From the IMG/VR virus record IMGVR_UViG_3300042276_000285: a stretch of 64,000 bases of DNA, one strand, 5' to 3'. This document shows positions 1 to 41,965 of the stretch, piece after piece (position 1 is the stretch's first letter; each line of letters opens with the position of its first letter). Origin of the DNA: an uncultured virus (IMG/VR IMGVR_UViG_3300042276_000285). Lineage: Duplodnaviria; Heunggongvirae; Uroviricota; Caudoviricetes. The translations under genes and the position numbers were made by a program. The notes beneath the pieces are model-generated. The model did no database searches, was not told the origin of the DNA, and saw nothing but the letters and a program-made list of their open reading frames with translations.

Positions 1-26
1 CTAATTGGTTTTAATAATAGTTAGCG
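1..26 (+). other. attI-like proximal recombination site of array 1 (may extend left of window)
   Basis: CTAATTGGTTTTAATAATAG|TTAGCGG. Nt 1-23 are the exact reverse complement of 41969-41991 at the end of array 2; no hairpin arm precedes this GTT. Confidence 0.7.
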
Positions 27-809
27 GTAATGCGAACCAAACACATCATCCACCGCTATGTTATAATATTCCTTTTCCTTTTCAATCCCAATAAATCTTC
101 TGTTCAAATCCTTAGCACCTAAACAAGTTGTCCCACTACCCATTGTGTTATCAAGTACATACTCGTTTTCTTCACTATATGCAGTAATCAACCACTTTAT
201 TAAATCCAAAGGTTTTTGAGTTGGGTGCTTTTGGTCTTGTCTTCTCCATTGTTGTGGATAGTCAAGTACAGTAATTGGGTGTCTTGTTCCTTTATTGTCA
301 GTCTGCACCCCTTTTATTCCGTACTTCATATTGTTTTGTTTGTTTGGTGTCCATTTACGTTTATACGGCTTTCCTTCCGTAAGTTGTGGTAAGTAATAAC
401 TTGCACTTTCACCAAATACTAATATCATTTCGTGTTTTTTAAGTGGCATATATTTAGCGGTAAAAGGGCTTCCACACTTACTTTTCTTCCAAACCATATC
501 GTATCTAAATAACCTTTCGTTACTAAGCGCAAGTTTAAAAGCAAACATTCCAGCACCAAACAAAACAATATTTCCCTTTGGTTTTAATATGCGTTCATAT
601 TCAACCCACAACTTGTTTAGGTCTAAAACACTATCCCATTTATTTGCAGTCGTTCCATAAGGCAAGTCAGCCAAAATAAGTTGAACAGATTTATTGGGTA
701 TCAAAGGAAGAATATCCATACAATCCGCATTGAACAAAGCACTACCGCCAACATTGGCTATATGTAATGCCTTATTTCCTGATTCGTATTTAAGTTTTTC
801 TATATCCAT
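21..809 (-). CDS. DNA methyltransferase, N6-A/N4-C family (beta class)
   Basis: DLPYG motif IV, HPTQKP, VLDNTMGSGTT SAM-binding motif, FIGIEKE. The start lies in the attC1 loop and the stop is the TAA of the core at 20-23. Confidence 0.9.
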   Translation of the reverse strand: MDIEKLKYESGNKALHIANVGGSALFNADCMDILPLIPNKSVQLILADLPYGTTANKWDSVLDLNKLWVEYERILKPKGNIVLFGAGMFAFKLALSNERLFRYDMVWKKSKCGSPFTAKYMPLKKHEMILVFGESASYYLPQLTEGKPYKRKWTPNKQNNMKYGIKGVQTDNKGTRHPITVLDYPQQWRRQDQKHPTQKPLDLIKWLITAYSEENEYVLDNTMGSGTTCLGAKDLNRRFIGIEKEKEYYNIAVDDVFGSHYR

Positions 810-876
810 AAGCTCCTACTTCGTATTAATTTTTTTGGTAGTTTATCGGCACTACACATAGCCCTATCCGTTATAC
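746..876 (+). repeat. attC-like site 1 (131 bp)
   Basis: CGCCAACattGGCTATATGTAATGCC ... GGCACTACACATAGCCctatccGTTATAC. Confidence 0.85.
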
Positions 877-958
877 CTCATTGCGCCAAAAAAATTGTAA
901 ATAAATTTGAAAGCTAAATACATGGCGCAACGCACGCAAAACAGAAAAAGTTTTGCTG

Positions 959-1952
959 GTATAACACCATGTATATTTTATAGCTGTATCGTTCATTTAT
1001 TAGGCGTTTCTGCGTAAATCCGTTTTAATAATTTTCCCACCGCACATTAGTTTTTTCAAAACTATTTGGATTCAGATATTTCTTTTATGGAGTTTTCCCA
1101 TTTTTCAATTGATTCCTGATAGCTTTTAATGTTTTTTGTTAAGCTATCAATAGACCTATGTTTAAGGTCGTTTAACTTTTCGGCATCTAATTTTATTCCA
1201 TATTTTTCAGCTAATTTTTTATCATCTGCCGATATTTTATCTTTTTCAGACAATATGCTTTCGAGTTTTGCAATGGCTTCTTCTTTAGTATGAAATGGAA
1301 TAAACTTTTTATGTCCGCCGGAATAATCATAATAATCTCCAATAGCATATGTAAATGAACCGTCATCTTTACCAAAAAATGAAATCAATCTCAATCTTTC
1401 CTCATAGCTTTCGTTAAATTCAGCCATATCCATGATTTTCAAATCATATCCAGTAACAAGAATATACTTTATGTCGCCACAGATATAATCAGCCATTAAA
1501 TCAAATGTTTCAGGCTTAATTTTATCAATAGCAGACTTTATATATTCTATTTTATTTCTAAATTCTTTTGTTATCTCTCTATGTCTTTTTTCTAAACGAG
1601 ACATTTCGTCTAATCTTTGATTATACTCTTTTTTATAACGTTCTTCAACTTCTTTAATCCGTTTTTCTTGCCATGAAACAGCGGGAAAATCATGCAAACT
1701 TCTAACAACGAAGTTTTCACCAGAAGGAACTTCCTGATTATTTACTATAAAAACTTCCTGCACTATCTTTTCTTGTGCATTAAGATTTCCAATAACTACT
1801 ACTTTTTTACCGTCTGTTGTGTACTTAAATTCATTCATTGTTTTATATTTTAAAGTTTAAAAAATCCCTCTCAAAAATTATTAAAACTACGTCAGTTTTT
1901 CATTGAACATTCTGCATTAATCACGCTACAAAACATACATTTTCCGTTACCT
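959..1952 (+). repeat. attC-like site 2, loop expanded by a whole gene
   Basis: Arms ATGTATATTTTATAGC / GCTACAAAACATACAT; inner IR TTTTAATAATTTT / AAAATTATTAAAA. Confidence 0.8.
1062..1838 (-). CDS. Hypothetical phage protein (coiled-coil rich) inside attC2 loop
   Basis: 258-aa ORF with A/T-rich leader; no recognised motif. Confidence 0.8.
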   Translation of the reverse strand: MNEFKYTTDGKKVVVIGNLNAQEKIVQEVFIVNNQEVPSGENFVVRSLHDFPAVSWQEKRIKEVEERYKKEYNQRLDEMSRLEKRHREITKEFRNKIEYIKSAIDKIKPETFDLMADYICGDIKYILVTGYDLKIMDMAEFNESYEERLRLISFFGKDDGSFTYAIGDYYDYSGGHKKFIPFHTKEEAIAKLESILSEKDKISADDKKLAEKYGIKLDAEKLNDLKHRSIDSLTKNIKSYQESIEKWENSIKEISESK

Positions 1953-1962
1953 GCAATAAAAA

Positions 1963-2169
1963 TTACTTGTCATCTCTTTTAGGGCAAGTATATCTAACAT
2001 CGCCTTGCAAGTATTTAATCGCATTCCAAAGGTCATCTAATACTATTGTGCCAAGTGGTAGTAAGTTCCCTTTTCCATCTTTTACGCCAGATAGATAAAT
2101 AGCCAAGTCTTTTAAACTATCAGTTCCTACTATAATTTTTTCTTGCATTGGTTTGTTGTTATCTTCCAT
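1963..2169 (-). CDS. Hypothetical cassette protein (MEDNNKP...)
   Basis: ORF fills body 1946-2194; ATG at 2169. Confidence 0.65.
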   Translation of the reverse strand: MEDNNKPMQEKIIVGTDSLKDLAIYLSGVKDGKGNLLPLGTIVLDDLWNAIKYLQGDVRYTCPKRDDK

Positions 2170-2187
2170 AATCGTAATTTTAAAAGC

Positions 2188-2317
2188 AGGTAACAACGTG
2201 TATAAAAAATAGCTGTTAAGTGCTTTGGTTAATGTTATTTTATTTTTGTTTACTCTTTTACTAATTCAATTTTTAAGTGTGTTAAAACGCTACATTTCAT
2301 ACACAAATACGTTGTGC
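2188..2317 (+). repeat. attC-like site 3 (130 bp)
   Basis: GTGTATAAAAAATAGC / GCTACATTTCATACAC arms, GTT at 2311. Confidence 0.8.
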
Positions 2318-2332
2318 TTCATTAAAACGAAA

Positions 2333-3175
2333 GCACAACATGCAATATAAAACATGCTTAGTGTAGTGCTTCGTTTCAATGTTTCTACAAGTTTGACCAT
2401 AATTAAATATTTTTTTGCCCGCCCGCTTTGGTTTTTTCAAAACCATTAGGTTTTCGTAGTTTTGCAACAAATTCAAATCCAGTTCTTACATTGCCGTTTT
2501 GTCCAAACCCATTGCCATTAGTTTGTACTTGTCTTACTTCTTCAAGCATAAAACCTATCTCAATTAAAATTTTAATATGCCAAGAAAAAGCATCCACAAT
2601 CTTTCCTTTTCGTATATGGTTCTTAAAATTTAGTATAAACAACCCATCTTTTTTCAAAACCCGATACGCCTCTTTCCATGCTTTAATGTGTAAATTCCGA
2701 TAATCTTCGCCCCATTGCATTTTACCGCTATTATTATCGTTAAGAGTTCTACCCAACTTATGTGTGTATGTATTCCTACTACTTCCGTCATTAGCATTGT
2801 GGCAATCTGCCATTCTGTTGCCATATGTTGGGCTTGTGCATATTGCATCAAATTCGCAATTCGCAAATTGCAAATCCGTAGCATCTCCAACAATAGTTCC
2901 TTCTTGCATACCCGCCCATTCTGGTTCAATTTCAACACCTATTGTATCAAAAGGCAAGCTATGTATCTTTCCTGTCCCAGCGAACGGGTCTAAAACAGTC
3001 TTGCATCCTTGAAGCATTTCTTCAAATACTGGTAAAAGTGCATCTGTATATTTAGCTGGGTGCTTTGGTTTATTCATAAAAATCCCTCCCTAAAAAATAT
3101 TTAATTATTACCGTTGTGCTTCGCATCATAGTTTCTGCGTAATTGTCGCACGTTTCATATTGCTGTCCGTTATGT
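2333..3175 (+). repeat. attC-like site 4, loop holds a methyltransferase gene
   Basis: GCAATATAAAACATGC / GCACGTTTCATATTGC arms, GTT at 3169. Confidence 0.8.
2403..3077 (-). CDS. DNA methyltransferase (probable N4-C/N6-A)
   Basis: HPAKY, VLDPFAGTG motif I, TSPTY motif IV, YRVLKKDG. Confidence 0.85.
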   Translation of the reverse strand: MNKPKHPAKYTDALLPVFEEMLQGCKTVLDPFAGTGKIHSLPFDTIGVEIEPEWAGMQEGTIVGDATDLQFANCEFDAICTSPTYGNRMADCHNANDGSSRNTYTHKLGRTLNDNNSGKMQWGEDYRNLHIKAWKEAYRVLKKDGLFILNFKNHIRKGKIVDAFSWHIKILIEIGFMLEEVRQVQTNGNGFGQNGNVRTGFEFVAKLRKPNGFEKTKAGGQKNI

Positions 3176-3415
3176 GGCATTTGTTTCAATCTTCCAGTAC
3201 ATACTACAATAATCAGGGTAAAGTGGCTTTTCTTTTGCAGAATGTTCACCGCTAAACACCTTCATTTCTGTATGGTCAAGAAAGTCTTTCATAAAATAAT
3301 GTTCACCACTTTCGTAATCTTTTTCAGTCTTGTAAGCACAAAAACGCCACATAACAACAGGTATAGTTAATGCTCGTTCTTCTGCTAAGTCGTAATATTT
3401 TTTCTTTTTACTCAT
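3170..3415 (-). CDS. Hypothetical protein crossing attC5/body junction
   Basis: Starts in attC5 loop, GTT core read as Val, stop at next core. Confidence 0.6.
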   Translation of the reverse strand: MSKKKKYYDLAEERALTIPVVMWRFCAYKTEKDYESGEHYFMKDFLDHTEMKVFSGEHSAKEKPLYPDYCSMYWKIETNAT

Positions 3416-3479
3416 TTCTATTTTTAATTAAAGTGAATACTTCTATGGTCGCACTAATCATACCTGTGGTACGTTAGCA
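3349..3479 (+). repeat. attC-like site 5 (131 bp)
   Basis: ACAGGTATAGTTAATGC / GCACTAATCATACCTGT arms. Confidence 0.8.
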
Positions 3480-3485
3480 GTAATA

Positions 3486-4247
3486 CTACATTCCATCTCC
3501 GAATGAAGTTATCACATTAAATTCTTTTTCTTTTCTTTTTTCTTCCACCCTCTTTTTTGAATTAGTAAAATGTTCTAATTCTTTTTCAATGCCAATGAAA
3601 TTTCTATCAGTATTTATACAAGCAATTCCTGTTGAACAACTCCCCATCGTATTATCTAGTACCAAGTCATTTTCATCAGTATATGTTTTGATAAGATATT
3701 CCAACAAATCAACAGGTTTTTCAGAACTATGTAATCTACTGTAATTATCTACACACTTAAACTCTAAAATGTTTGTTGGAAATCTTGTTGTTTTACCACC
3801 TTCGTAATCTCTTGTATTTGTTCCGTGATATGCTTTTCCATTACTGCAACCTTTTGCACTATTTGTTGGTATGTGTCCATCTGTTATTTGTGGATAGTAT
3901 TTACCTTTTTTGAAAATACATATTTCTTCAATTTTTCTAATTGGCATTCGTTTAGCGTGAAAGAAATTAGTTCCTTGATTTTTCAACCAATACCAACAAT
4001 ATCTAAAATCCTTTTCATTGCTTGAAATTATTTTGGTTGTAAATGGCTGTGAAGCAAATAAAGCAATCGTTCCGTTTTTCTTTATTATTCGGTTGTATTG
4101 TTTCCAAAGTTCAATCATATCAATATGTTCATCCCATTTTGGTGCTGTCATCCCATAAGGTAAATCACAACAAATAAAATCAATACTTTTATCAGGTATC
4201 AATTTCATTTGTTCTATTGTATCTCCGTATCTTAAATCTATTGTCAT
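3486..4247 (-). CDS. DNA methyltransferase, N6-A/N4-C family (paralogue of 21..809)
   Basis: DLPYG, HSSEKP, VLDNTMGS, FIGIEKE. Confidence 0.9.
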   Translation of the reverse strand: MTIDLRYGDTIEQMKLIPDKSIDFICCDLPYGMTAPKWDEHIDMIELWKQYNRIIKKNGTIALFASQPFTTKIISSNEKDFRYCWYWLKNQGTNFFHAKRMPIRKIEEICIFKKGKYYPQITDGHIPTNSAKGCSNGKAYHGTNTRDYEGGKTTRFPTNILEFKCVDNYSRLHSSEKPVDLLEYLIKTYTDENDLVLDNTMGSCSTGIACINTDRNFIGIEKELEHFTNSKKRVEEKRKEKEFNVITSFGDGM

Positions 4248-4338
4248 AATTTTATTTTAATATTTTACCACCACACAAAAAAGAAAAGAAAAAGGTTCTG
4301 TTCTTCGATTGAGTATTTGTGGTTTAAATCCGTACTAC

Positions 4339-4432
4339 TGCTAACAGCGTATATAAGAAATGGCACATAAACATTTGTGCTAAATTTCAAGTTCGTGCAA
4401 GTGCCACTTCTCATATACGCAAACCGTTAGCG
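4339..4432 (+). repeat. attC-like site 6 (94 bp)
   Basis: GCGTATATAAGAAATGGCAC / GTGCCACTTCTCATATACGC arms. Confidence 0.9.
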
Positions 4433-4433
4433 G

Positions 4434-4847
4434 TCAGTTTTTTACCTTTAAATAATAAGCATACAACTCCTCTGTTGTCAAATGACCAACCGTGTGAATA
4501 TACCAACTACCACCCCTGTATCTAAACCAGCTATCAGCTTGCATTTTTTTAGCAATCCAGTCTGCGAACAAAACCGAACCGCTAACATTGTGCAAATGTA
4601 AACCGCTCGCTTCGTTGTTGCGTTCAGCCTCCGCGCGTTCTAAAAAATCATTCTCAAAATATTTTTTAATCTTTTTGCGCTCAGATGTTTTTAATTTAGT
4701 TATTTGTTTTTTGTGATATCCGGCTGTATAGTATTTGCCATTCCTTTTTACAGAATCGACAGTATATTCTAAAATTTTGTCGTTTATAATAATTGTAACA
4801 TCATGTGTAAATGTTTTTACTCTTTCTTTAAAATAAGTTATTTCCAT
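4434..4847 (-). CDS. Hypothetical fusion protein (attC7 loop + body)
   Basis: Junction peptide GLHLHNVSGS. Confidence 0.7.
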   Translation of the reverse strand: MEITYFKERVKTFTHDVTIIINDKILEYTVDSVKRNGKYYTAGYHKKQITKLKTSERKKIKKYFENDFLERAEAERNNEASGLHLHNVSGSVLFADWIAKKMQADSWFRYRGGSWYIHTVGHLTTEELYAYYLKVKN

Positions 4848-4932
4848 CGCGCGTTAATTTATAGTTTCGTAACTCGTATCAATGTTCATCTGTAATTCAA
4901 TAGCGGTCAGCACTTGCACTTTGCCGTTATAG
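4580..4932 (+). repeat. attC-like site 7
   Basis: GTGCAAATGTAAACCGCT / AGCGGTCAGCACTTGCAC arms. Confidence 0.8.
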
Positions 4933-5442
4933 TGCATTGCCCACCCGCTCAAAAACGAATTGCTTCGGAAGTAAATTTGAGCATAGGTAAATACTTTTAA
5001 ATGGTACGCCCTTTAGTTCTATTCCTGTCTTTATATAATCAATTCGTTTATCAAACACCATTATTTCAAATTTGTGGGTACTTAATAGTCCGTACCGCTT
5101 TTTGCTATCAAATAAACCTGCTTCATTAATCAACATTGCAAATGGTTTATTAAGTCCAAACAACCGTTCTAAAATCGGTTCTCGTAGGCTGTATGGTGGG
5201 TTACTTATAATTAGGTCGTAATTTTGTTCAGGTTCATACTCGAAAAAGTCTTTCCCTTCGTCAATATGTGAGTGTATAACATTATGGCTTTCACTCAGTA
5301 GTTTCACAAAATTACTTTCGTTCGTATCAAACGGACACCAAACGGTTGTTTTCGGTGGTAAATATGGTAAAAGCGGTACTATTGCGTAATCTTTAGTATA
5401 GTACTCATCGGCTTTGTTCTGTTTAAATTGGTGATTTGCCAT
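4927..5442 (-). CDS. Small phage adenine DNA methyltransferase
   Basis: DEYYT, VWCPFD, GKDFF, IISNPPYS motifs. Confidence 0.8.
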   Translation of the reverse strand: MANHQFKQNKADEYYTKDYAIVPLLPYLPPKTTVWCPFDTNESNFVKLLSESHNVIHSHIDEGKDFFEYEPEQNYDLIISNPPYSLREPILERLFGLNKPFAMLINEAGLFDSKKRYGLLSTHKFEIMVFDKRIDYIKTGIELKGVPFKSIYLCSNLLPKQFVFERVGNAL

Positions 5443-5456
5443 CGCTCAAAAACGCA

Positions 5457-5586
5457 CTATAACAATTTATATAAGTAATAGCCGTTGTAGTGCAATTATT
5501 AGGGCTTATTACTCTGTTTAACATTTGCAATTATTTCAAAGTTCGTGTTTCAAATCGGCTACTACTCATATAAGTATCCGTTATAA
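5457..5586 (+). repeat. attC-like site 8 (130 bp)
   Basis: TTATATAAGTAATAGCCG / CGGCTACTACTCATATAA arms. Confidence 0.85.
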
Positions 5587-5592
5587 AACATT

Positions 5593-5727
5593 TTAAGACA
5601 CATCATATGTCGAAAAATATTCACCATCTATATAAACTATTGCTTCATTTTCACGGTACTTTATTTTAATGTTTGAGCCGTAATTTAACTTTTCTCTGAG
5701 TAATTTAAGTAAGTCTTCTAAATACAT
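5593..5727 (-). CDS. Small hypothetical cassette protein (44 aa, MYLEDLLK...)
   Basis: Translated by hand; fills body 5580-5746. Confidence 0.55.
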   Translation of the reverse strand: MYLEDLLKLLREKLNYGSNIKIKYRENEAIVYIDGEYFSTYDVS

Positions 5728-5739
5728 AATAAAAACGTT

Positions 5740-5835
5740 TTATAACAAAAGCTATAAACAAAAAGCCTCTGTTTGGTTTGTACTTTTAATTATATTTTAT
5801 GGTTCGGCTTTCAGTTCATAGCCAAGCCGTTAGCG
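5740..5835 (+). repeat. attC-like site 9 (96 bp)
   Basis: GCTATAAACAAAAAGCC / GGCTTTCAGTTCATAGC arms. Confidence 0.85.
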
Positions 5836-6123
5836 TTCAGTTTGCCGATTATTGCAAATTTTCCAAATTGTTCCGTTCAGACATTTTCCATTGTATTGGT
5901 CTAAGCATGGTCTGTAATGGCAAACCGCATCGCTAACATGCGGTTTATTGCAGTTGCTCAGCTCGTCCGAACTTTTTGCCAACGCGCGGGGAAGCCATTC
6001 AAAACTTATAACCGAATCAACTCTTTTTTGTCCCTGTTTTTCGTACCAGTCAAATAGCTGGTCTTCCTCGGTTTGCGTTTCTGGTGTAATATGTGGCACA
6101 TTATCTGTAAATTGTATTTTCAT
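5830..6123 (-). CDS. Hypothetical fusion protein with Cys-rich C-terminus
   Basis: Junction peptide NCNKPHVSDA. Confidence 0.65.
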   Translation of the reverse strand: MKIQFTDNVPHITPETQTEEDQLFDWYEKQGQKRVDSVISFEWLPRALAKSSDELSNCNKPHVSDAVCHYRPCLDQYNGKCLNGTIWKICNNRQTER

Positions 6124-6212
6124 CCTACGCTCGTATTTTTATGGTTATTTACTCGTATCAACTTATTCGGTTATTGTAGCGGCAACCGACAACAAACCGC
6201 CAGCCGTTAGCA
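5931..6212 (+). repeat. attC-like site 10
   Basis: GCGGTTTATTGCAGTTGC / GCAACCGACAACAAACCGC arms. Confidence 0.8.
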
Positions 6213-6345
6213 ATAATAAAAACTAACAGTATCAATATGTACCGCCTATTTTGTCACTGCCGCAATTTGCACAGCTTGTAAAATTAAAATGTTCTATATT
6301 ATATGGATTCCATTTGTATCCACATTCCATACATTTACAATAGTC

Positions 6346-6519
6346 TTATTTAAAATCGTTTTTACTATTGCTAACATTATGCAAATTTAAATTTTTAATT
6401 TTCCATTCTGCATATTCGTTCATTGCGTTCAATATCGTGGCTTCCTTGCCTATATCTTCCAAACAAGGTTCCCAACTTCTCCAAATTTCAAGCATTTTTA
6501 AAGTGTCGTTTTTACTCAT
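6346..6519 (-). CDS. Small fusion ORF (57 aa) followed in frame by a stop-separated Zn-ribbon module
   Basis: MSKNDTLKM...NLNLHNVSNSKNDFK* then DYCKCMECG...CANCGSD to TGA at 6232. Confidence 0.5.
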   Translation of the reverse strand: MSKNDTLKMLEIWRSWEPCLEDIGKEATILNAMNEYAEWKIKNLNLHNVSNSKNDFK

Positions 6520-6569
6520 AATATTTCAATTTAAAATTAAAAATCAAAACTTGCACTTGTCCGTTAGCA
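6369..6569 (+). repeat. attC-like site 11
   Basis: TGCAAATTTAAATTTTTAATT / AATTAAAAATCAAAACTTGCA arms. Confidence 0.75.
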
Positions 6570-6578
6570 ATCAGTTTG

Positions 6579-6971
6579 CTAACCATCTATTCCACATTTA
6601 ATACACTTTAATGCAAATGGTATGTCAGATTCTTCGTTTGTTGTCCACTCGTGTTCGCAAACCGCCGTTTCGTCATTTATTTGCGCTTCGTGCTTAACGC
6701 CACATTCGCACTCATAAATAACTTTTGTAATCGGGGCTAATTTGTTGCATAAAGGGCAAATAAATTCCTTCACTTTGCTAACACCATGCAAAGGTAATGC
6801 TGCGCTCTCGTCCAAACTGTTTCCCGATGCTCGTTCTAATTCAAGAATATAATTAGCCAAATATTCTCTTTCATTAATCGTTAGAATATCAGCTTTTGTT
6901 TTGCCAATTAAAGCACTCACAATCATTTTTCGTTCCAATCCAAGTTTATTCAATTTGTTAATGTAATCCAT
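6579..6971 (-). CDS. Hypothetical fusion protein with Zn-ribbon C-terminus
   Basis: Junction peptide DESAALPLHGVS; CxxC pairs. Confidence 0.7.
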   Translation of the reverse strand: MDYINKLNKLGLERKMIVSALIGKTKADILTINEREYLANYILELERASGNSLDESAALPLHGVSKVKEFICPLCNKLAPITKVIYECECGVKHEAQINDETAVCEHEWTTNEESDIPFALKCIKCGIDG

Positions 6972-7057
6972 CGCTCGTATTATTTAATCGTTATTTACTC
7001 GTATCTACTTTCGTGCAGCTTTCAGGGCAGCACATACCCTTGCATTTACCGTTAGCA
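6776..7057 (+). repeat. attC-like site 12 (same shell as 35599-35965)
   Basis: ATGCAAAGGTAATGCTGC / GCAGCACATACCCTTGCAT arms. Confidence 0.9.
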
Positions 7058-7063
7058 GTAATG

Positions 7064-7306
7064 CTATTTGTGCTTATCATAAAATTCAATTAAATGATAT
7101 ATGCACTTCGCATCTCCCGTACTGCTAAACATATACTTTTGCCTCAAATATTCAACCATTTCATCAAGACTTAATGTGTTCCAATCAAACATAGGTGAAG
7201 CACTACTGCTAACACCATGTAAAAAACATTGCTCGGCAAGTTTCTTAGCATCTGGCTTTGGTTCACCTATTATAATCACTTTTGGCTTTTTGTCTTTATC
7301 TTTCAT
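7064..7306 (-). CDS. Hypothetical fusion protein
   Basis: Junction peptide CFLHGVSSSA. Confidence 0.65.
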   Translation of the reverse strand: MKDKDKKPKVIIIGEPKPDAKKLAEQCFLHGVSSSASPMFDWNTLSLDEMVEYLRQKYMFSSTGDAKCIYHLIEFYDKHK

Positions 7307-7339
7307 ATCGCAACGATTTTTTACATTTCAACGTTGTAT
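7207..7339 (+). repeat. attC-like site 13 (133 bp)
   Basis: ATGTAAAAAACATTGC / GCAACGATTTTTTACAT arms. Confidence 0.8.
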
Positions 7340-7491
7340 TTCACGGTAAGACCGAGAGGTTCAGAATCTACTTTAAAAATTCTTGTTTTAAAGTAGTGAA
7401 CCGAAGGGATTACGCGACGGTAGGAGCGAGTGAAATACAACGGCTTCGTGTAAACTTGAAATATGTGACCACTTTAACCGGAGCGAGCGCA

Positions 7492-7768
7492 ACACAACAA
7501 AAGTGTAAACGTAATTTCAAACGCGAGCTTAATTTCATTTCAAGTTCCTGTATTGCTCCCAGCCTTTAAAATTGAAATCTCTTTATTCATTCGCTCAATG
7601 CGTACATCGTATTTTTTAACATCGGTCATATAACCTAAATTTTCGTGTACTTTTCTCAATTCAAGTAACCTATCTCTATAAATTTCAAATGTCTTTAATA
7701 TGTCCATGATATTTCAATTTTAAATTCTTTCTCAATCCAGAAACTACGTTTACACGAAGCCGTTAGGC
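7492..7768 (+). repeat. attC-like site 14
   Basis: GTGTAAACGTAATTTC / GAAACTACGTTTACAC arms. Confidence 0.75.
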
Positions 7769-8053
7769 TTCATTTACCTCCGCACTCATAAATAATTCCC
7801 ATGCCTTTTGGTAGTTCTTATGCCACATTTTTTGTAACTCAATATCTTTATCACTCCAATTGTGTTTAGGCTGTAATTCGGCATAAGAATCATCATCCCA
7901 ACCCATTACAACGCCATACATAAAAGCTATCATCTTATCTTCGCTGCAATCTCTGGAGGTAAATGCGAATGTTTCGTGCAACCTTTGTAATGGGTTTGTT
8001 GGCGTTTCCATCTCATCTCTTGTTTGCCATTTTAATTCTGTATTATCTTTCAT
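7763..8053 (-). CDS. Hypothetical cassette protein (MKDNTELK...)
   Basis: ORF between CCWCCGCAC direct repeats; stop in core. Confidence 0.7.
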   Translation of the reverse strand: MKDNTELKWQTRDEMETPTNPLQRLHETFAFTSRDCSEDKMIAFMYGVVMGWDDDSYAELQPKHNWSDKDIELQKMWHKNYQKAWELFMSAEVNEA

Positions 8054-8086
8054 AATATTGTTTTTATCCCACCGCACAAAACGAAA

Positions 8087-8216
8087 GCCTAACAATGTAT
8101 AAAAATAATAGGCGGTTACGTGCGTGTAGGTAGTTTATAATCATTTAATTAATTGTATTCTGTTTGCGAAGTTCAGCGTTTCAAATCGCCTACTATTCTT
8201 ATACTCACCGTTACCG
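8087..8216 (+). repeat. attC-like site 15 (130 bp, related to site 8)
   Basis: GTATAAAAATAATAGGCG / CGCCTACTATTCTTATAC arms. Confidence 0.85.
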
Positions 8217-8286
8217 TGCATGCTAAATTTTAATTTAGTGCCGTGCTTAATCAGAAAGTGTTTAACCTTTAAGAAAAAGCACGACA

Positions 8287-8635
8287 CGGTAACAATGTGT
8301 AACTACAAAATGCTCGTAGCTCGTAAAACCATTTAGCCATCACACAACTCTGTTACCAGTAAGTCTTATCTTACCATCATCTTTTGGCTGTGTTTCCATT
8401 ACAATAAATTCACTTCCGTCTGAATTGTGTCTGTGCAATATTACAATTGCATCTAATTCAACTTTCCCATAAACAGAATCACCATAGTCTATGGTAACTT
8501 TTCTTGTTTTTGTTTTTCTTGTAGGCATATTTATTTATTTAGTTGCCCTCCGCGCTGTACTTTGGGCTGTTAATTCTCGTATCAAAGTCGCTGCAAATTT
8601 GAAGCAGCATTCAGTAGTTACACCAACCGTTAACG
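8287..8635 (+). repeat. attC-like site 16
   Basis: GTGTAACTACAAAATGCT / AGCATTCAGTAGTTACAC arms. Confidence 0.85.
8340..8528 (-). CDS. Small hypothetical protein in attC16 loop
   Basis: 62-aa ORF flanked by CCATCACAC / CCTCCGCGC. Confidence 0.6.
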   Translation of the reverse strand: MPTRKTKTRKVTIDYGDSVYGKVELDAIVILHRHNSDGSEFIVMETQPKDDGKIRLTGNRVV

Positions 8636-8977
8636 CACATGCTGAGAATCGTATTCATCAGCAGCTTTGCGTAATTCGTTATATTCTATAACAGGTACAG
8701 TAAACTTTTTGAAACGGTGTGCAATCTTTGAACCATCTACATATTCAGCAAGGTTTCCGCAGCTTTCAACAAAAGCACGTGCGTTAACACAAGCTAAATG
8801 CAAACCGCCTTCGGTATCTGAATCGGGCTTGCCAACGCTCGCAATAAATTTGGCTGTTAACTCTTTATTTCTGTAAAGAAATTCAGTTATAACTTGTGAG
8901 TTAGTCGTGTCATTGTTAACCTTCCAATCGGTTTTTTTATCAATGAAGGTTAGTAGTTCATTTAAAAATTTTTCCAT
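8630..8977 (-). CDS. Hypothetical fusion protein
   Basis: Junction peptide GGLHLACVNARA. Confidence 0.7.
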   Translation of the reverse strand: MEKFLNELLTFIDKKTDWKVNNDTTNSQVITEFLYRNKELTAKFIASVGKPDSDTEGGLHLACVNARAFVESCGNLAEYVDGSKIAHRFKKFTVPVIEYNELRKAADEYDSQHVR

Positions 8978-9061
8978 CGCTTCGGTATTTTAAAGTTATT
9001 TGTTATCTGATAATTCATCGGTTATTCAAAAGGCGGTCAGCACTTAGCTAAACCGTTAGCA
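8782..9061 (+). repeat. attC-like site 17 (family of site 7)
   Basis: AGCTAAATGCAAACCGCCTT / AAGGCGGTCAGCACTTAGCT arms. Confidence 0.85.
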
Positions 9062-9113
9062 ACAATGCCTTTAAATAATTGCCAACACTCAAAAGCCTTA
9101 CACAAGGCACAGT

Positions 9114-9537
9114 TGCTAACACGTTGTATAAAACATGCTTGCGGTAGTGCCTCGTGCTAGCTTCGGTGCTTAATTGGAGCAAAATAATAATGCCCCACGC
9201 ACAACAACTACTTTTTAATTTCAGGCCAACTCCACTCGCGCTCTCCTGTACCCAAAACAGCAGAAGTTACCCAAAGGTTTTCTTCTCCATCAAGTAGTAC
9301 TTTAAGGTTTACGCACTCGTCACCCCACACAGCAGTAATAACCGCAGGTGCATCTTCTTGGTAATTGTTCATCTTGTCCTTTTGCTCTTCATCACAATGA
9401 TAAATCACAATTCTACCTATTGTTGGTGTCATAACTAAATATGGGTTTTACAAAGCCCGCCCAGGGCATTATTATTTTTTCTCTCGTGTGAAGGTCAGTG
9501 CAAATTTGCCGTACTTGCCATATTGCCACCGTTAGCT
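9114..9537 (+). repeat. attC-like site 18 with non-matching (hybrid) outer arms
   Basis: Both boxes present; inner IR AAAATAATAATGCC / GGCATTATTATTTT; outer arms do not pair. Confidence 0.6.
9208..9432 (-). CDS. Small phage protein (MTPTIGRIVIY...WSWP)
   Basis: PTIGRIV / PAVIT / VNLKV / W-WP pattern typical of a common small phage protein. Confidence 0.75.
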   Translation of the reverse strand: MTPTIGRIVIYHCDEEQKDKMNNYQEDAPAVITAVWGDECVNLKVLLDGEENLWVTSAVLGTGEREWSWPEIKK

Positions 9538-10288
9538 ACAAAGCCAACAACTGTTCGTACTTTTTTAAACATTTACGGCAAATTAAGCGTGTGTCTATTT
9601 TTGTCGGTTGCTTATCCAACGCACGAAATGGAATATTGCCGTCAGGGTGTGTATATTTTGAATCATCTTTTGTTTTATCATAGGTTGGTAAGCCAGAAAG
9701 CGATAATGTATTATAGCCACCATTTTTTACTGAATATCCTGTCGTTTTATGATCTGGTTCGCAAAGAACTTTTCCATCAACGGCAATATGACGTTTTTTA
9801 GTAGCCCAACACAAAGCAACCTTGCGTTCTGCGTTTGGCTCAGTAGCTAACACATTACATAGGTCATTTGCTTTGCTATTCGGATGTTTGGTACTTTTAT
9901 TCATCGTATCTGTTTTTTGAAGTTTTGTAAATTTATTCAGGGGCAAACGCCCCATGTAATCGGCACGGTACCATTCATTCGCCCCACCGCACATCGTAAT
10001 ATCATTGTAACCACCAATTCCAACAACTTTTGCATCATCCCAATTACTTATCCCGTATTTAAACTCTCGCATTTCTGTGTAGGGTTTTCCTTTAAATCTA
10101 ACATCGGGCTTTGGCATCTTATCAAACATGAAGAAACCATCACAGCAATGCAACTGTTTTTCGCTGTAATAAAATACGTGCGTAGCCCTATTCTTTCTAA
10201 ATGGGTTACTCATAAACGCCCAACACTGCAACGAAATGGTAACAATGTGTAGGCGTAATGCCTTCGTTTTTTTAATTAAAGTTTTCAT
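9536..10288 (-). CDS. Read-through fusion of two cassettes
   Basis: Spans attC20, body 20, attC19 and body 19; core mutation at 9968 removes the internal TAA. Confidence 0.55.
   Translation of the reverse strand: MKTLIKKTKALRLHIVTISLQCWAFMSNPFRKNRATHVFYYSEKQLHCCDGFFMFDKMPKPDVRFKGKPYTEMREFKYGISNWDDAKVVGIGGYNDITMCGGANEWYRADYMGRLPLNKFTKLQKTDTMNKSTKHPNSKANDLCNVLATEPNAERKVALCWATKKRHIAVDGKVLCEPDHKTTGYSVKNGGYNTLSLSGLPTYDKTKDDSKYTHPDGNIPFRALDKQPTKIDTRLICRKCLKKYEQLLAL
9845..9973 (+). repeat. attC-like site 19 with mutated core (GGT)
   Basis: ATTACATAGGTCATTTGC / GCAAACGCCCCATGTAAT arms; GGTACCATT where GTTACCATT is expected. Confidence 0.8.
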
Positions 10289-10354
10289 ATACTTTTAGTT
10301 TTTAAGTTTTAAAACGAGTCAGTGGTGGCACTCCGCCTACACCAACCGTTATAG
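10237..10354 (+). repeat. attC-like site 20 (118 bp)
   Basis: GTGTAGGCGTAATGCC / GGCACTCCGCCTACAC arms. Confidence 0.85.
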
Positions 10355-10372
10355 TGCATTTCCATCCGCACT

Positions 10373-10537
10373 CTAAATCTGTTTATAAAATTCAATTTCT
10401 TTTCTTGTCATAGGTACTACTTGGTAACCATAACCTTGTTCTGCTTTCCAGTTAAAACATTCTTCGTATGTACCTGCATATACCTCATTACCCTCATCTT
10501 CATGGTAAACTAAATCAATTACTTTATGTGTTTTCAT
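10373..10537 (-). CDS. Small hypothetical cassette protein (MKTHKVID...)
   Basis: ORF in body 10348-10578. Confidence 0.6.
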   Translation of the reverse strand: MKTHKVIDLVYHEDEGNEVYAGTYEECFNWKAEQGYGYQVVPMTRKEIEFYKQI

Positions 10538-10630
10538 TTTATAATTTGTTATGCCTACCCGCAAAAACGCACTATAACAAGCGGTCATAAAAAATTGCGG
10601 GGTTAGCGGTTAACATTTAAACTTCTACAC

Positions 10631-24404: not shown

Positions 24405-24444
24405 GTTAAAATGTTTGTATGTTTGGTATTTATTTCTTATCTTT

Positions 24445-24571
24445 GTACAACGTTTGGTGCAAGTGGTGTTAGCCAACCGTATTGCAAATAATATAACACC
24501 GCAAAATGGTTAACGTGTGCAGATTTTTGTGAGTAACGCATTGGGCTAATGCCATTTGCACATTGTTAGCG
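24445..24571 (-). repeat. Orphan attC-like site (127 bp)
   Basis: TACAACGtttgGTGCAAGTGGTGTTAGCC ... GGCTAATGCCATTTGCACattGTTAGCG. Confidence 0.8.
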
Positions 24572-25037
24572 CAAGTATTTGGTTCTATGTCAGGCATTGT
24601 AAATGATTATGAAAGATTATTAGATTATACTAAGAAACATCAAAAAGCTGTTTCTGAAATTTTACCTGTTTTAAACGGAATGTCTACGAGAGATGCTAAG
24701 GACGTTCTTAAGTCTGTTGAACAGAGGCTTGATGAATTTCCTTTATCCATATCTGTTTAATCATTGTTTTTTATTAATACAGTTTCAGTCGTAAAATATT
24801 CAACTAATTTGTCGTCCTAGTCTTTTACTGTCATTCTTATTAAACTTCCATCTGTTCTGTGTTCTATTGAAGCGATTTAAGATGTGTTTAAGATTCGTTT
24901 ACCGTTAGGTGTTTGAATAGTAATAAAATTTGGTTTTGTCATAATTTATAAAATTTAAAAGTTAATGGATTTAGCTATTCTTTGTTGTCGCCTTCTTGGT
25001 TTAGATCCAGAAAAATATTCGACAAAAGCGAAACAAA

Positions 25038-35157: not shown

Positions 35158-35259
35158 TTCACAAATACTTGCATCGATGCGACTTATTTTCTATCTTTGC
35201 TAACGTTTCCGCCATGAGTAGTGGCGGTTTTAGAACTACTCACTTTAAATAACAAAATA

Positions 35260-35592
35260 ATGAGCGAATTTGAAAACGGATATTATTGGGTAAGTTATAA
35301 AGGTATGAAACCTGTAATTATGGAAAAAGATAATTATGGATGGAATGCTATGGGTATAGAAACCGAACCAGATTTAACAGATTATAAAGTATTAGGAAAG
35401 GTAAGCGAATGGGATTTGAGCGTACCACAAGCAAATGAATTATCACCGCATGTTAGCGGTAGTGCTTTTCCTAAGTACGATTGCGATGATTGTAAACACT
35501 ACCCCTGCCAAACAGAACCAGATAGCCACGGAAGCCGACAAAGAAAAATAGAATACGGTAAATGCGGAGACCATAGCGAAAGATGTGATTAG
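35260..35592 (+). CDS. Hypothetical fusion protein, Cys-rich C-terminus
   Basis: Junction peptide NELSPHVSGSA. Confidence 0.65.
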   Translation: MSEFENGYYWVSYKGMKPVIMEKDNYGWNAMGIETEPDLTDYKVLGKVSEWDLSVPQANELSPHVSGSAFPKYDCDDCKHYPCQTEPDSHGSRQRKIEYGKCGDHSERCD

Positions 35593-35598
35593 CATTAC

Positions 35599-35965
35599 CG
35601 CTAACGGTAAATGCAAGGGTATGTGCTGCCATGAAAGTTGCACAGACAATGATACGAGTAAACGACAAAACAAATAAAAGCGATGGAAAAAATAACTTAT
35701 TACACAAACAGCGGTGAATTTATAGCTGACAAATTACTGCCATGTCCTTTTTGTGGGGGTGAGCCTGAATTTATAACAATCGGAAACTACCACACAAAGA
35801 GTAGAAAAGCACAAATTGAATGTACCAAATGCCATGTAAGGCGAACAACTGGCACAATTAGAAATGACCTTGAATGGTGTGGACGTAAAGCAATTGAGGC
35901 TTGGAACGCGCGTTGGCAAGACAGTTCGGACGAGAGCGCAGCATTACCTTTGCATGATGTTAGCG
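35599..35965 (-). repeat. attC-like site sharing its shell with 6776-7057
   Basis: GCTAACGGTAAATGCAAGGGTATGTGCTGCC and GGACGAGAGCGCAGCATTACCTTTGCATG identical to the reverse complement of site 12. Confidence 0.9.
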
Positions 35966-41959: not shown

Positions 41960-41965
41960 CATTAC

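What the first reader, a model, noticed from the sequence alone, without database searches (positions are those of the whole stretch)
1..10630. Phage-borne integron-like cassette array 1 (21 cassettes)
Seen: 10.6 kb is tiled almost without gaps by alternating units. Each body has complementary ends (e.g. GTTAGCAGTAATGCT 7051 / AGCACTACTGCTAAC 7213; GTTAACGCACATGCT 8629 / AGCACGTGCGTTAAC 8788). Each hairpin site is bounded by YAACA...CGTT with 15-20 bp imperfect arms, and unexpanded sites cluster at 129-133 bp. Established: this is the signature of integron cassettes, where R'' RYYYAAC matches the cassette's own 5' GTTRRRY. Inference: a tailed phage uses a cassette platform as its accessory-gene module, and the cargo is phage-type rather than bacterial.
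Basis: partly seen in the sequence, partly recalled or inferred. Interest (0 to 1): 0.95.

Follow-up and report, generated by a model that had tools for sequence, protein, structure and literature searches.

The report
Phage gene-cassette arrays with own recombinase
A crAss-like phage carries two long arrays of swappable gene cassettes, mostly anti-restriction genes, separated by hairpin recombination sites and ending next to a Xer-like recombinase gene, so it resembles a bacterial integron built from different parts.

Summary
Window 1-10630 (genes on the minus strand) and 35201-41972 (plus strand) are tiled by cassettes bounded by YAAC|G cores. Each cassette starts with a hairpin site (TAACG..arm..arm..TGTTA), and its 3' end pairs with the sequence behind the internal core.

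Four lines of evidence support a recombination platform:
- **Structure.** 18 of 24 stem pairs covary, and G·T wobbles sit at fixed places on the gene-sense strand.
- **Strain differences.** Genomes more than 99% identical differ by whole cassettes, with every junction inside the 4-8 nt core.
- **Transfer.** One methylase cassette is shared at 86% identity with an unrelated Flavobacterium siphovirus, core to core.
- **Recombinase.** In near-identical genomes a 271-aa tyrosine recombinase starts about 50 nt beyond the array end, just left of window position 1. Array 2 ends in an exact copy of that end site plus 43 nt of the recombinase gene.

The recombinase is Xer-like with intact catalytic residues, and it does not meet the integron-integrase profile. 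Its homologues sit beside such arrays in 38 other viral contigs, in cultured Polaribacter phages Freya_1-10, and in Flavobacteriaceae chromosomes.

Verdict: an integron-like cassette platform that is not a canonical integron. Only a two-site CALIN in phage P12002L was found in print.

The parts
1..19 (-). Last 19 nt of the attI-like end site of array 1. The rest of the site and the recombinase gene lie left of the window.
   Evidence: Identical to G003 16965-16983. In G003 this is followed, 50 nt on, by the start of the 271-aa recombinase gene.
20..10630 (-). Cassette array 1, with the sense strand on minus. About 17-20 cassettes bounded by CCG|TTA cores.
   Evidence: Strain differences: G002 lacks window 33-7048, and G003 has an extra 456-nt cassette at position 20.
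745..877 (-). Long-class hairpin site of the last cassette. Its loop holds the start codon and a 24-aa leader of methylase 21-809.
   Evidence: Covariance model 39.1 bits; leader KALHIANVGGS.
21..809 (-). Cargo: N6/N4 DNA methyltransferase.
   Evidence: PF01555 E 8e-35; phrog_67.
962..1949 (-). Expanded hairpin site with ORF 1062-1838 in its loop.
   Evidence: Arm duplex -12.2 kcal/mol, just under my threshold.
2187..2318 (-). Hairpin site with a CAACG variant core.
   Evidence: Covariance model 36.9 bits. Window 2178-2315 is 91% identical to Polaribacter phage P12002L.
2403..3077 (-). Cargo: DNA methyltransferase.
   Evidence: PF01555 E 2e-10.
3348..3480 (-). Long-class hairpin site.
   Evidence: Covariance model 40.5 bits.
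3473..4344 (-). Cassette body with complementary ends, carrying methylase 3486-4247.
   Evidence: Window 3471-4346 is 86% identical to Flavobacterium phage mymlan6-1, with unrelated flanks. In 18 of 47 other viral loci the homology stops at 3470-3474.
4338..4433 (-). Short-class hairpin site.
   Evidence: Arm duplex -20.1 kcal/mol. Covariance model 84.1 bits on the sense strand against 25.7 on the antisense strand (this was a training sequence).
4583..4929 (-). Expanded hairpin site.
   Evidence: -15.6 kcal/mol.
4927..5442 (-). Cargo: DNA methyltransferase.
   Evidence: phrog_799 E 4e-33.
5456..5587 (-). Long-class hairpin site.
   Evidence: Covariance model 53 bits.
5579..5835 (-). Whole cassette that sits in array 2 of strain G002.
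   Evidence: 99.6% identical to L003 13783-14040. Also found on a contig of run X6 with other flanks.
5934..6209 (-). Expanded hairpin site.
   Evidence: -19.9 kcal/mol.
6372..6566 (-). Expanded hairpin site.
   Evidence: -16.9 kcal/mol.
6779..7054 (-). Expanded hairpin site. Its core at 7049-7054 is the junction of the G002 deletion.
   Evidence: -16.8 kcal/mol.
8086..8217 (-). Long-class hairpin site.
   Evidence: Covariance model 40.7 bits.
8290..8632 (-). Expanded hairpin site.
   Evidence: -17.7 kcal/mol.
8785..9058 (-). Expanded hairpin site.
   Evidence: -19.8 kcal/mol.
9844..9974 (-). Hairpin site with a decayed core, inside the 250-aa ORF 9536-10288.
   Evidence: Covariance model 30.5 bits.
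10236..10355 (-). Hairpin site.
   Evidence: -18.1 kcal/mol; covariance model 55.2 bits (training sequence).
24444..24572 (+). Solitary hairpin site outside both arrays.
   Evidence: Covariance model 29.6 bits, E 0.004; sequence.
35201..41972 (+). Cassette array 2, with the sense strand on plus. 11 paired sites: 35602-35962, 36118-37027, 37089-37459, 37529-37660, 37952-38053, 38262-38538, 38694-38898, 39117-39961, 40036-40925, 40994-41126, 41306-41437.
   Evidence: In G002, window 37538-41962 is replaced, with the junction directly behind TAACGG at 37533-37538.
35683..36120 (+). Cargo: Lar-like restriction alleviation protein. The ORF starts in a site loop, runs through the internal core, and stops at the TAA of the next TAACGG.
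   Evidence: PF14354 E 2e-10; phrog_599.
39205..39867 (+). Cargo: D12-class DNA methyltransferase in the loop of an expanded site.
   Evidence: PF02086; phrog_56.
40118..40834 (+). Cargo: DNA methyltransferase in the loop of an expanded site (arm duplex -21 kcal/mol).
   Evidence: PF01555; phrog_23224 E 6e-35.
41973..42021 (+). Second copy of the attI-like end site, holding two direct repeats of AACCAATTA.
   Evidence: Identical to the sequence between array 1 and the recombinase start in G003 and G002.
42022..42064 (+). Remnant of the recombinase gene: the first 43 nt, encoding MDLTELKQNYVTVL, after which the sequence diverges.
   Evidence: Alignment A3; protein P0001.

Best explanation
The region is a recombinase-run gene-cassette platform that works like an integron. 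The window holds two arrays.

Anatomy, read on the gene-sense strand. A cassette runs from one TAA|CG core to the next. It has five parts in order:
1. A left arm.
2. A loop, which may be short, may carry a start codon and leader peptide, or may carry a whole gene.
3. A right arm.
4. An internal TGTTA core.
5. A body whose last 8-14 nt pair with the first nt behind the internal core.

In an excised circle, the two arm pairs and the core would form one long stem. That explains why each cassette's ends are complementary.

Recombinase. A 271-aa Xer-like tyrosine recombinase with the full R-K-H-R-H-Y set is encoded co-directionally just beyond the 3' end of array 1. An attI-like site separates it from the array. 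Array 2 ends in a copy of that site.

Proposed mechanism. The recombinase exchanges strands at the core between a folded hairpin site and the end site (insertion), or between two hairpin sites (excision and deletion). This lets the phage gain, lose and shuffle anti-restriction genes.

Shown: the structure and its covariation; cassette-sized differences between near-identical genomes, with junctions in the core; transfer of a cassette between unrelated phages; and the conserved link between this recombinase family and such arrays.

Inferred: folding of the single-stranded sense strand, catalysis by this particular enzyme, and circular intermediates.
For: Structure.
- 22 of 28 TAACGG sites pair with a partner, against 1.5% of 263 control sites.
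- On 44 sites from 20 contigs, 18 of 24 pairs have compensatory changes. The covariation score is 0.599, against 0.163 in shuffles (0 of 500 reach it) and 0.09-0.17 when partners are slid.
- G·T wobbles sit at fixed columns (43 of 44 and 41 of 44), and in 23 window sites there are 61 G·T against 7 T·G.
- The covariance model scores the sense strand 84 bits and the antisense strand 26 bits.

Mobility.
- G002 against the window: array 2 differs from directly behind TAACGG (37538) to the end site. Cassette 5579-5835 sits in the other array.
- G002 lacks window 33-7048, joined within CCGTTAGC. It also carries 2.5 kb more, inserted at AATAATA|GTTA. G003 carries one 456-nt cassette more at the same point.
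- The methylase cassette is 86% identical in a Flavobacterium siphovirus, core to core. In 18 of 47 viral loci the homology ends at 3470-3474.

Recombinase.
- PF00589 E 3e-19 plus a SAM-like N-terminal domain.
- Catalytic residues are invariant in 28 homologues.
- The start codon lies 50 nt from the end of array 1. The attI-like site and 43 nt of the gene are duplicated at the end of array 2.

Family link.
- In 38 viral loci with homologues of 27-66% identity, hairpins number 222 in 214.5 kb upstream against 34 in 274 kb downstream, and density rises toward the gene.
- Cultured phage Freya_10 has 4.9 kb of cassettes inserted exactly between ACAAC| and the site in front of the integrase, relative to Freya_1. 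Other isolates hold subsets.
- In Flavobacteriaceae, 49 of 101 genomes have model hits, there are one-stranded arrays of up to 15 sites, and a homologue often lies 1-13 kb away.

Prior experiment. One attC called in the related array of phage P12002L recombined with attI1 under IntI1 (Qi et al. 2023, PMC9892861, section 3.4 and supplement read).
Against: - No excised circle, no recombination assay and no reads across a fresh junction were seen. Catalysis by this enzyme is inferred from position alone.
- Phages mymlan6-1 and P12002L have arrays (8 and 3 model hits) but no tyrosine recombinase at all.
- The enzyme lacks the segment that integron integrases need for folded single-stranded sites. 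Hairpin recombination by it is therefore unproven.
- Sites for the covariation test were picked by arm duplex energy, so the high percentage paired is partly built in.
- Contigs of four other metagenomes laid on the array give mixed results. Only about 5-6 of the 24 listed loose ends fall at cores. A joint seen in 3 runs (2443->3074) lies at gene ends, not cores. The one clean core-to-core joint (7047->9528) has only 22 letters on its short side.
- 3 sense ORFs of 60 aa or more cross a boundary core.
- Some units have arms that do not pair (9534, 7765).
- The G·T bias would also fit a structure that acts in RNA.
Confidence: 0.75

Rival explanations
1. The hairpins are regulatory elements of a polycistronic early region: terminator, promoter or translation-start modules, like the PeSL elements of T4-type phages (recalled, not read here). 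On this view they shuffle genes only because they offer short homology to the general recombination machinery, and the recombinase serves something else, such as lysogeny.
For: - Sites are fixed in orientation relative to transcription.
- G·T (G·U) wobbles lie on the sense strand.
- Loops carry conserved motifs.
- In 32 of 53 long-class sites the loop holds an ATG that reads in frame through the right arm into the cassette ORF.
- Bartlau et al. 2021 (PMC8776804, passages read) read the Freya integrase as a sign of temperate potential.
Against: - Junctions between strains fall within a 4-8 nt core with unrelated arms on either side. That is too little homology for general recombination.
- Arrays cluster on one side of the recombinase gene in 38 loci.
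- The end site is duplicated together with a fragment of the recombinase gene.
- Phi14:2 early transcripts showed no common upstream motif (preprint 10.1101/2020.03.07.982082, passages read), and the sites also occur in siphoviruses.
- A regulatory role could still coexist with recombination.
Confidence: 0.1
2. The arrays are ordinary integron material: clusters of attC sites lacking an integrase (CALINs), picked up from bacterial integrons and recombined by a host integron integrase.
For: - Qi et al. 2023 called a CALIN with two attC sites in phage P12002L, and one site recombined under IntI1.
- That phage shares a 138-nt site at 91% identity with the window.
- The core, the crossover position and the complementarity of cassette ends follow integron rules.
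Against: - The neighbouring recombinase scores 67 bits on TIGR02249 (cut-off 265), and only over its N-terminal half.
- No other tyrosine recombinase was found in the parts of the phage that I could see.
- Canonical integrons are reported as nearly absent from Bacteroidetes (IntegronFinder 2.0 preprint, passages read), yet 49 of 101 Flavobacteriaceae genomes carry these sites.
- The genes lie on the bottom-strand side, and the recombinase is co-directional with the array.
- P12002L_attC1, the site with the same cores as here, did not recombine under IntI1.
Confidence: 0.07
3. The units are small non-autonomous mobile elements. Either they are MITE-like, or they are elements that exploit a Xer recombinase at a dif-like site, as IMEX elements and pdif modules of Acinetobacter plasmids do (recalled). 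On this view they have piled up one after another.
For: - Each unit has its own terminal inverted repeats.
- The enzyme is Xer-like.
- A homologue is a mostly single-copy chromosomal gene in 77 of 101 Flavobacteriaceae genomes.
- Many chromosomal hits lie at contig ends, as dispersed repeats do.
- A MITE census reports MITEs shared by Flavobacteriales and their viruses (PMC11602168, passages read).
Against: - Units tile without gaps and share one core between neighbours, rather than having target duplications.
- Arrays are one-stranded and polar toward the recombinase.
- Arms vary from site to site, so they are not conserved Xer-binding half-sites.
- This rival differs from the best explanation mostly in name.
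Confidence: 0.08

Closest known systems
Integrons (IntI, attI, attC cassette arrays; sedentary chromosomal integrons)
   Same: - Cassettes are separated by imperfect hairpin sites whose sequence varies but whose structure is kept.
- AAC/GTT cores sit at the stem base.
- The crossover is at G|TT, so each cassette's 5' end complements its own site.
- One strand folds better than the other.
- An end site with direct repeats lies next to a tyrosine recombinase gene, and that is where content varies most.
   Different: - The recombinase is a 271-aa Xer-like enzyme without the IntI-specific segment.
- It lies co-directional and downstream of the genes in phages, and convergent in bacteria. It is not divergent.
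- Genes are on the strand equivalent to the attC bottom strand.
- The complementary cassette ends are 8-14 nt, not 4.
- The stem has a 3-nt bulge beside the core and fixed G·T pairs, instead of the two extrahelical bases.
- Loops can hold whole genes or a translated leader.
CALIN in Polaribacter phage P12002L (Qi et al. 2023, Front Microbiol, PMC9892861)
   Same: - The site family is the same: GCTAACGG...TTGTTAGG.
- The cargo type is the same, DNA methyltransferases.
- A 138-nt site is 91% identical to window 2178-2315.
   Different: - Only two sites were called there, and no recombinase was linked to them.
- Here there are about 28 sites in two arrays, an adjacent recombinase family, strain-level turnover, and chromosomal counterparts.
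Xer-dependent elements: CTX phage hairpin attP, IMEX, pdif modules (recalled)
   Same: - A Xer-type enzyme is involved.
- A folded single strand may mimic a duplex site.
- Modules are bounded by sites in alternating orientation.
   Different: - The sites here are not conserved 28-bp dif-like sequences.
- The phage brings its own enzyme.
- The arrays are long and polar.
PeSL (promoter-early stem-loop) cassettes of T4-type phages (recalled)
   Same: Small accessory genes in a hyperplastic phage region are separated by stem-loops that mark exchange points.
   Different: PeSL shuffling is thought to rest on homology between conserved elements, and no recombinase is involved. Here the arms are not conserved, the junctions lie in a 4-8 nt core, and a recombinase is linked.

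Membership tests
Integron | Integron integrase: a tyrosine recombinase with the IntI-specific extra segment in the catalytic domain | tested here: not met
   - TIGR02249 scores 67.1 bits (cut-off 265) and matches only profile positions 15-177 of 315. PRK15417 scores 29 bits (cut-off 435).
- phmmer aligns IntI4 (2a3v) only over residues 59-171, while XerA and XerD align to the C-terminus.
- R134 to H218 is 84 residues. The spacings of XerD and IntI1 that I compare this with are recalled.
- The fold is nearest XerA, then IntI.
Integron | attC-type sites: imperfect hairpins with AAC...GTT cores, conserved in structure and variable in sequence | tested here: met
Integron | Sites recognised by the canonical attC model (IntegronFinder or HattCI), with two extrahelical bases | not testable with these tools
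   - Neither model is on hand, and Rfam gives no hit on the sites.
- Qi et al. called 2 sites in P12002L.
- Here the stem shows a 3-nt bulge and fixed G·T pairs instead of extrahelical bases.
Integron | Crossover at G|TT, so that a cassette's first bases complement its own site | tested here: met
   Junctions lie in GTTA / CCGTTAGC. Complementary ends are shown.
Integron | attI beside the integrase gene, serving as the preferred insertion point | tested here: met
   This is comparative evidence only. There are three states at the end of array 1 in three strains, replacement up to the end of array 2, and the 4.9 kb Freya_10 insertion at the site.
Integron | Integrase gene divergent from the array; promoterless cassettes read from Pc on the attC top strand | tested here: not met
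   - The recombinase is co-directional and downstream of the array.
- The genes lie on the strand that reads TAAC-GG...T-GTTA, like the aadA7 bottom strand in Qi et al. Table S3.
- Pc was not tested.
CALIN | Two or more attC sites with no integrase nearby | tested here: inconclusive
   Array 2 has 11 sites and only a 43-nt remnant of the recombinase gene. Whether its sites count as attC depends on the canonical model.
Xer/dif modules (IMEX, pdif) | Sites with conserved XerC- and XerD-binding arms around a 6-8 bp centre | tested here: not met
   The arms differ from site to site. Only TAACG and TGTTA are invariant in 44 sites.
MITE | Terminal inverted repeats plus a target-site duplication, at dispersed single insertions | tested here: inconclusive
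   - Inverted ends are present.
- Neighbours share one core rather than a duplication.
- Chromosomal hits at contig ends were not resolved.

The most novel reading that the evidence does not exclude
This may be a second lineage of integron-like systems that has not been described. It would be native to Flavobacteriaceae and their phages, from siphoviruses to crAss-like phages. A short Xer-like recombinase runs it. That enzyme lacks the helix thought to have made integron integrases able to act on folded single strands.

If so, hairpin-site cassette capture evolved twice. Phages would use it to trade anti-restriction genes among unrelated viral families and with host chromosomes.
Probability: 0.5. 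Interest if true: 0.92.

Novelty: new variant of a known kind. Interest (0 to 1): 0.88.

Why it matters
Integrons are the textbook device for capturing genes, and they are considered bacterial, IntI-dependent and nearly absent from Bacteroidetes. Three consequences would follow if this finding holds.

- **A second platform.** Here a platform of the same logic, but with another recombinase and a differently built site, sits in a crAss-like phage, in cultured marine flavophages and in about half of the Flavobacteriaceae genomes sampled.
- **Phage plasticity.** It would explain how virulent phages keep a fast-changing set of methyltransferases and other counter-defence genes, and how such genes pass between unrelated phages.
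- **Integrase genes in phages.** It would change how an integrase gene in a phage genome is read. It need not mean lysogeny.

The system also offers a natural test of whether the IntI-specific helix is really needed for recombination of folded single strands. Cultured host-phage pairs are available for that test: Polaribacter with Freya_1 to Freya_10, whose arrays range from 0 to 4.9 kb.

Tried and rejected
- **Rfam scan of the window.** No family matches the sites. The only hit is a twister ribozyme elsewhere.
- **Earlier findings of this scan.** Nothing is on record.
- **Anchored ungapped or gapped arm scoring.** It was too strict because of the bulge beside the core. I replaced it with duplex energies.
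- **Search for PF00589 in the nearest record, G001.** No hit, but that record ends at window position 13, so the result says nothing. The gene was found in G002 and G003.
- **Idea that the hairpins are promoters for the virion RNA polymerase, as in N4.** The phi14:2 preprint reports no common motif for early transcripts, and the sites occur in siphoviruses. Dropped.
- **Bacterial loci as a negative control.** 40 of the 80 loci returned were scanned, and most showed 0-3 hairpins upstream. A few had 5-9 downstream. Later calls showed that closer chromosomal homologues do have convergent arrays. The control therefore holds only for the upstream, co-directional layout.
- **Laid contigs.** Parts of the array without cover in runs X6-X9 are not evidence. 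Most loose ends are not at cores. The joints at 1342->10391 and 7054->10565 have short sides and were not used.
- **Covariance model on the Freya loci.** No hit. Freya sites were seen only through duplex energy and the junction sequences.
- **Cross-tabulation of model hits and recombinase in 101 genomes.** The result is 45 of 49 against 32 of 52.
- **Prior-art searches.** Only Qi et al. 2023 bears on this. Supplements of bioRxiv preprints, and Dryad file 1 of Qi et al. (site coordinates), could not be seen.

Full report
**What the window is.** The window comes from a crAss-like phage. ORF 42843-46427 carries the crassvirus muzzle C-terminal domain, and a 2616-aa protein follows it. Genes run on the minus strand up to about 21 kb and on the plus strand after that, and the GC skew turns there. 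The phage's DNA is held in wastewater metagenome runs. The window's own assembly is not held. Three near-identical IMG/VR records stand in for it: G001, G002 and G003.

**The observation.** On the + strand of 1-10630, CCGTTA occurs 16 times and its complement never. A second region, 35.2-42.0 kb, has the mirror bias of 12 to 2. The remaining 46.5 kb hold 4 and 11.

Read on the gene-sense strand, the pattern is:

..bR-GCTAACGG-aL..loop..aR-TGTTAGC-bL..body..bR-GCTAACGG..

Here aL pairs with aR, and bL pairs with bR. I call TAACG 'J1' and TGTTA 'J2'.
- Of 28 TAACGG sites, 22 have a downstream GTTA partner with an arm duplex of -13 kcal/mol or better. Of 263 TAAC sites outside the arrays, 1.5% do.
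- Three of the six misses have a variant core or fall just under the threshold.
- Unexpanded sites fall into two size classes, about 88-112 nt and 124-133 nt. Others are 'expanded', with 195-988 nt between the arms.

**Structure is under selection.** I aligned 44 short sites: 4 from the window and 40 from 19 other viral contigs.
- Only TAACG and TGTTA are invariant.
- The consensus fold has 24 pairs, and 18 of them carry compensatory changes. One pair, for example, is UA 13, GC 12, CG 11, AU 6.
- 95.7% of cells pair, against 71.9% in shuffles. The covariation score is 0.599 against 0.163 (0 of 500 shuffles reach it), and 0.09-0.17 when partners are slid.
- Caveat: the sites were chosen by duplex energy, so the percentage paired is partly built in. 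The diversity of pair types is not.

Two features are fixed: a 3-nt bulge on the 5' arm beside the core, and G·T pairs at set columns (43 of 44 and 41 of 44). In 23 window sites there are 61 G·T against 7 T·G, 6 A·C and 11 C·A. The gene-sense strand therefore folds well, while its complement would carry A·C mismatches. A covariance model built from the alignment scores the two best window sites at 84 and 75 bits on the sense strand and 26 and 25 on the antisense strand. It also finds 9 further window sites at E<0.01, all on the sense strand of their array, plus one solitary site at 24444-24572.

**Which core bounds a cassette.** Sense ORFs of 60 aa or more run through J2 13 times at the 27 sites. 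They run through J1 only 3 times. One of those is at a decayed core inside a 250-aa ORF, and two are alternative-frame ORFs. The TAA of TAACGG is often the stop codon.

ORFs cross J2 in one frame, with GTT AGC read as Val-Ser, giving ..LHxVS... In other phages, 32 of 53 long-class sites have an ATG in the loop that is open through the right arm to that GTT codon and on for a median of about 55 codons. Only 9 of 43 short-class sites do, and those ORFs continue only briefly. The window's methylase 21-809 has such a 24-aa leader, and its paralogue 3486-4247 does not. A cassette therefore runs from J1 to J1, and long-class sites supply a start codon and a leader.

**Cassettes move, and junctions lie in the core.**
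1. G002 is 99.6% identical to the window over 24054-37538 and 99.0% over 41962-46018. Between these it carries 3.5 kb of other cassettes. The left junction falls directly behind TAACGG (37533-37538). One of the G002 cassettes is window 5579-5835 from array 1, at 99.6% identity.
2. In array 1, G002 lacks window 33-7048. The join lies within CCGTTAGC.
3. At the 3' end of array 1 the three strains read AATAATA-GTTA followed by three different cassettes. G003 has one 456-nt cassette more than the window, and G002 has a further 2.5 kb.
4. Window 3471-4346, a methylase body from GTTAGC to GCTAAC, is 86% identical to Flavobacterium siphovirus mymlan6-1, with unrelated flanks. Window 2178-2315, a site, is 91% identical to Polaribacter phage P12002L.
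5. Relatives of that methylase turned up in 47 other viral loci.
   - Nucleotide homology stops at 3470-3474 in 18 of them.
   - Upstream, it stops at 4428-4434 (J1) in 7, at 4346-4364 (J2) in 11, and at 4390 in 2.
   - In the rest it ends inside the gene or 10-30 nt off.
6. Contigs of four other metagenomes give mixed support.
   - For: a core-to-core joint (7047->9528, short side 22), cassette 5579-5832 in foreign flanks, and contig ends at several cores.
   - Against: only about 5-6 of the 24 listed loose ends fall at cores, and a joint seen in three runs lies at gene ends.

**The recombinase.**
- Position. In G003 and G002, 50 nt beyond the last core of array 1, a 271-aa ORF starts on the same strand (G003 16118-16933). 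It lies just left of window position 1. Window 1-19 is the end of the intervening site.
- Domains and scores. It has PF00589 (E 3e-19) and the SAM-like N-terminal domain. Its best NCBIfam model is archaeal XerA, at 105 bits against a cut-off of 220. The integron-integrase model gives 67 bits against a cut-off of 265, and only over the N-terminal half.
- Catalytic residues. R134, K159, H218, R221, H243 and Y252 are invariant in 28 homologues.
- Fold. The predicted fold (pLDDT 86.8) is nearest XerA, then IntI.
- Second copy. Array 2 ends with TAAC (41969-41972), followed by an exact copy of the 49-nt intervening site and the first 43 nt of the recombinase gene, after which the sequence diverges. 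The site holds two direct repeats of AACCAATTA.

**The link holds across the family.** 38 other viral loci encode homologues of 27-66% identity. In them, TAAC..GTTA hairpins of -13 kcal/mol or better number 222 in 214.5 kb upstream on the same strand (1.03 per kb) and 34 in 274 kb downstream (0.12 per kb). There are 60 in the nearest kb. The last core is followed by a conserved YAAC|TAKTATATA motif.

Cultured Polaribacter phages Freya_1 to Freya_10 range from 43,978 to 48,920 bp and encode a homologue. Freya_10 is 100% and 99.9% identical to Freya_1 on either side of a 4.9-kb insertion. The insertion lies exactly between ACAAC| and the site 47 nt before the integrase ATG. It begins GGATATGG.. 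and ends ..GCTAAC. Other isolates hold subsets, and Danklef phages share 38% of it at 97% identity. The paper that describes these phages reads the integrase as temperate potential, in the passages I read.

Phages mymlan6-1 and P12002L have arrays (8 and 3 model hits) but no tyrosine recombinase.

**The system is also chromosomal.**
- The covariance model hits 49 of 101 sampled Flavobacteriaceae genomes at E<=0.001, with only 41 candidates scored per genome. Many hits lie at contig ends.
- Four contigs that I fetched hold one-stranded arrays of 15, 6, 4 and 4 sites.
- A homologue of the recombinase (E<=1e-50, about 376 aa, with an N-terminal extension) is present in 77 of 101 genomes, mostly as a single copy. 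It is in 45 of the 49 model-positive genomes and 32 of the 52 others.
- The homologue often lies 1-13 kb from a site and is convergent with the array. In L214, six sites on the plus strand (11813-17128) are followed by the gene on the minus strand (18119-18931).

**Cargo.** The cargo includes six DNA methyltransferases (21-809, 2403-3077, 3486-4247, 4927-5442, 39205-39867, 40118-40834) and a Lar-like restriction alleviation protein (35683-36120). The remaining small ORFs have no family.

**Comparison with what is known.** The geometry follows integron rules if the antisense strand is taken as the top strand: recombinase gene, end site, then cassettes that each end in a site, with the crossover at G|TT. 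The sense strand reads TAAC-GG...T-GTTA, like the aadA7 bottom strand printed in Qi et al. Table S3.

Qi et al. 2023 (abstract, section 3.4 and supplement read) reported a CALIN with two attC sites in P12002L. One site recombined under IntI1. The other, which has the cores seen here, did not. The IntegronFinder 2.0 preprint reports integrons as nearly absent from Bacteroidetes, in the passages I read.

My searches found no description of a Xer-like recombinase tied to such arrays.

Membership in 'integron' fails on the integrase and on gene polarity. The way the system works matches.

**Verdict.** It is best filed as a new variant of the integron kind. The enzymology is unproven.

Noticed in passing
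window 14526-14592 (-): Type-P3 twister ribozyme, 41.8 bits against a gathering score of 39.9, E 1.7e-5. It lies between small ORFs of the leftward gene block.
   Followed up: no
window 24444-24572 (+): A solitary hairpin site of the same family (ACAACG...TTGTTAGCG) in the intergenic stretch before the ORF that starts at 24609, far from both arrays.
   Followed up: partly
window 7439-7455 and 7748-7764: A perfect 17-nt inverted repeat (AACGGCTTCGTGTAAAC / GTTTACACGAAGCCGTT) flanks ORF 7540-7707. Both ends look like boundary cores, as if one unit were bounded by two J1-type halves.
   Followed up: no
window 9121-9534 and 7765: Two units whose outer arms do not pair with each other. Unit 9121-9534 has an inner 15-nt perfect inverted repeat (9181-9195 / 9464-9478) around ORF 9208-9432. 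These may be chimeric cassettes.
   Followed up: no
L198 (G030:C11), L197, L199, L200, L214: Flavobacteriaceae chromosomes carry one-stranded arrays of the same sites, up to 15 on a 15.9-kb contig. A 376-aa homologue of the recombinase lies convergent with the array. The sense strand of L198 has few ORFs of 50 aa or more.
   Followed up: partly
L149 (Desulfitobacterium sp. Sab5, NZ_CP172056.1): Nine TAAC..GTTA hairpins and five TAACGG motifs lie within 8 kb downstream of a 26%-identical recombinase homologue in a Firmicute.
   Followed up: no
L130, L136, L137, L150, L152, L155, L162, L167, L182: Homologues of 25-28% identity occur in DPANN archaeal MAGs (Nanoarchaeota, Woesearchaeota, Pacearchaeota). 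Of these, only L130, L137 and L150 were scanned for hairpins, and none showed enrichment.
   Followed up: partly
Freya_10 record 4969-5592 (L185): An HNH endonuclease gene follows the integrase directly in Freya phages.
   Followed up: no
window 6777-6839, 6967-7066 vs 35602-35962: The site at 6779-7054 in array 1 and the site at 35602-35962 in array 2 share arms at 84-90% identity and the translated motif DESAALPLH(G/D)VS, but they hold different loops. This suggests exchange of site halves between the arrays.
   Followed up: partly
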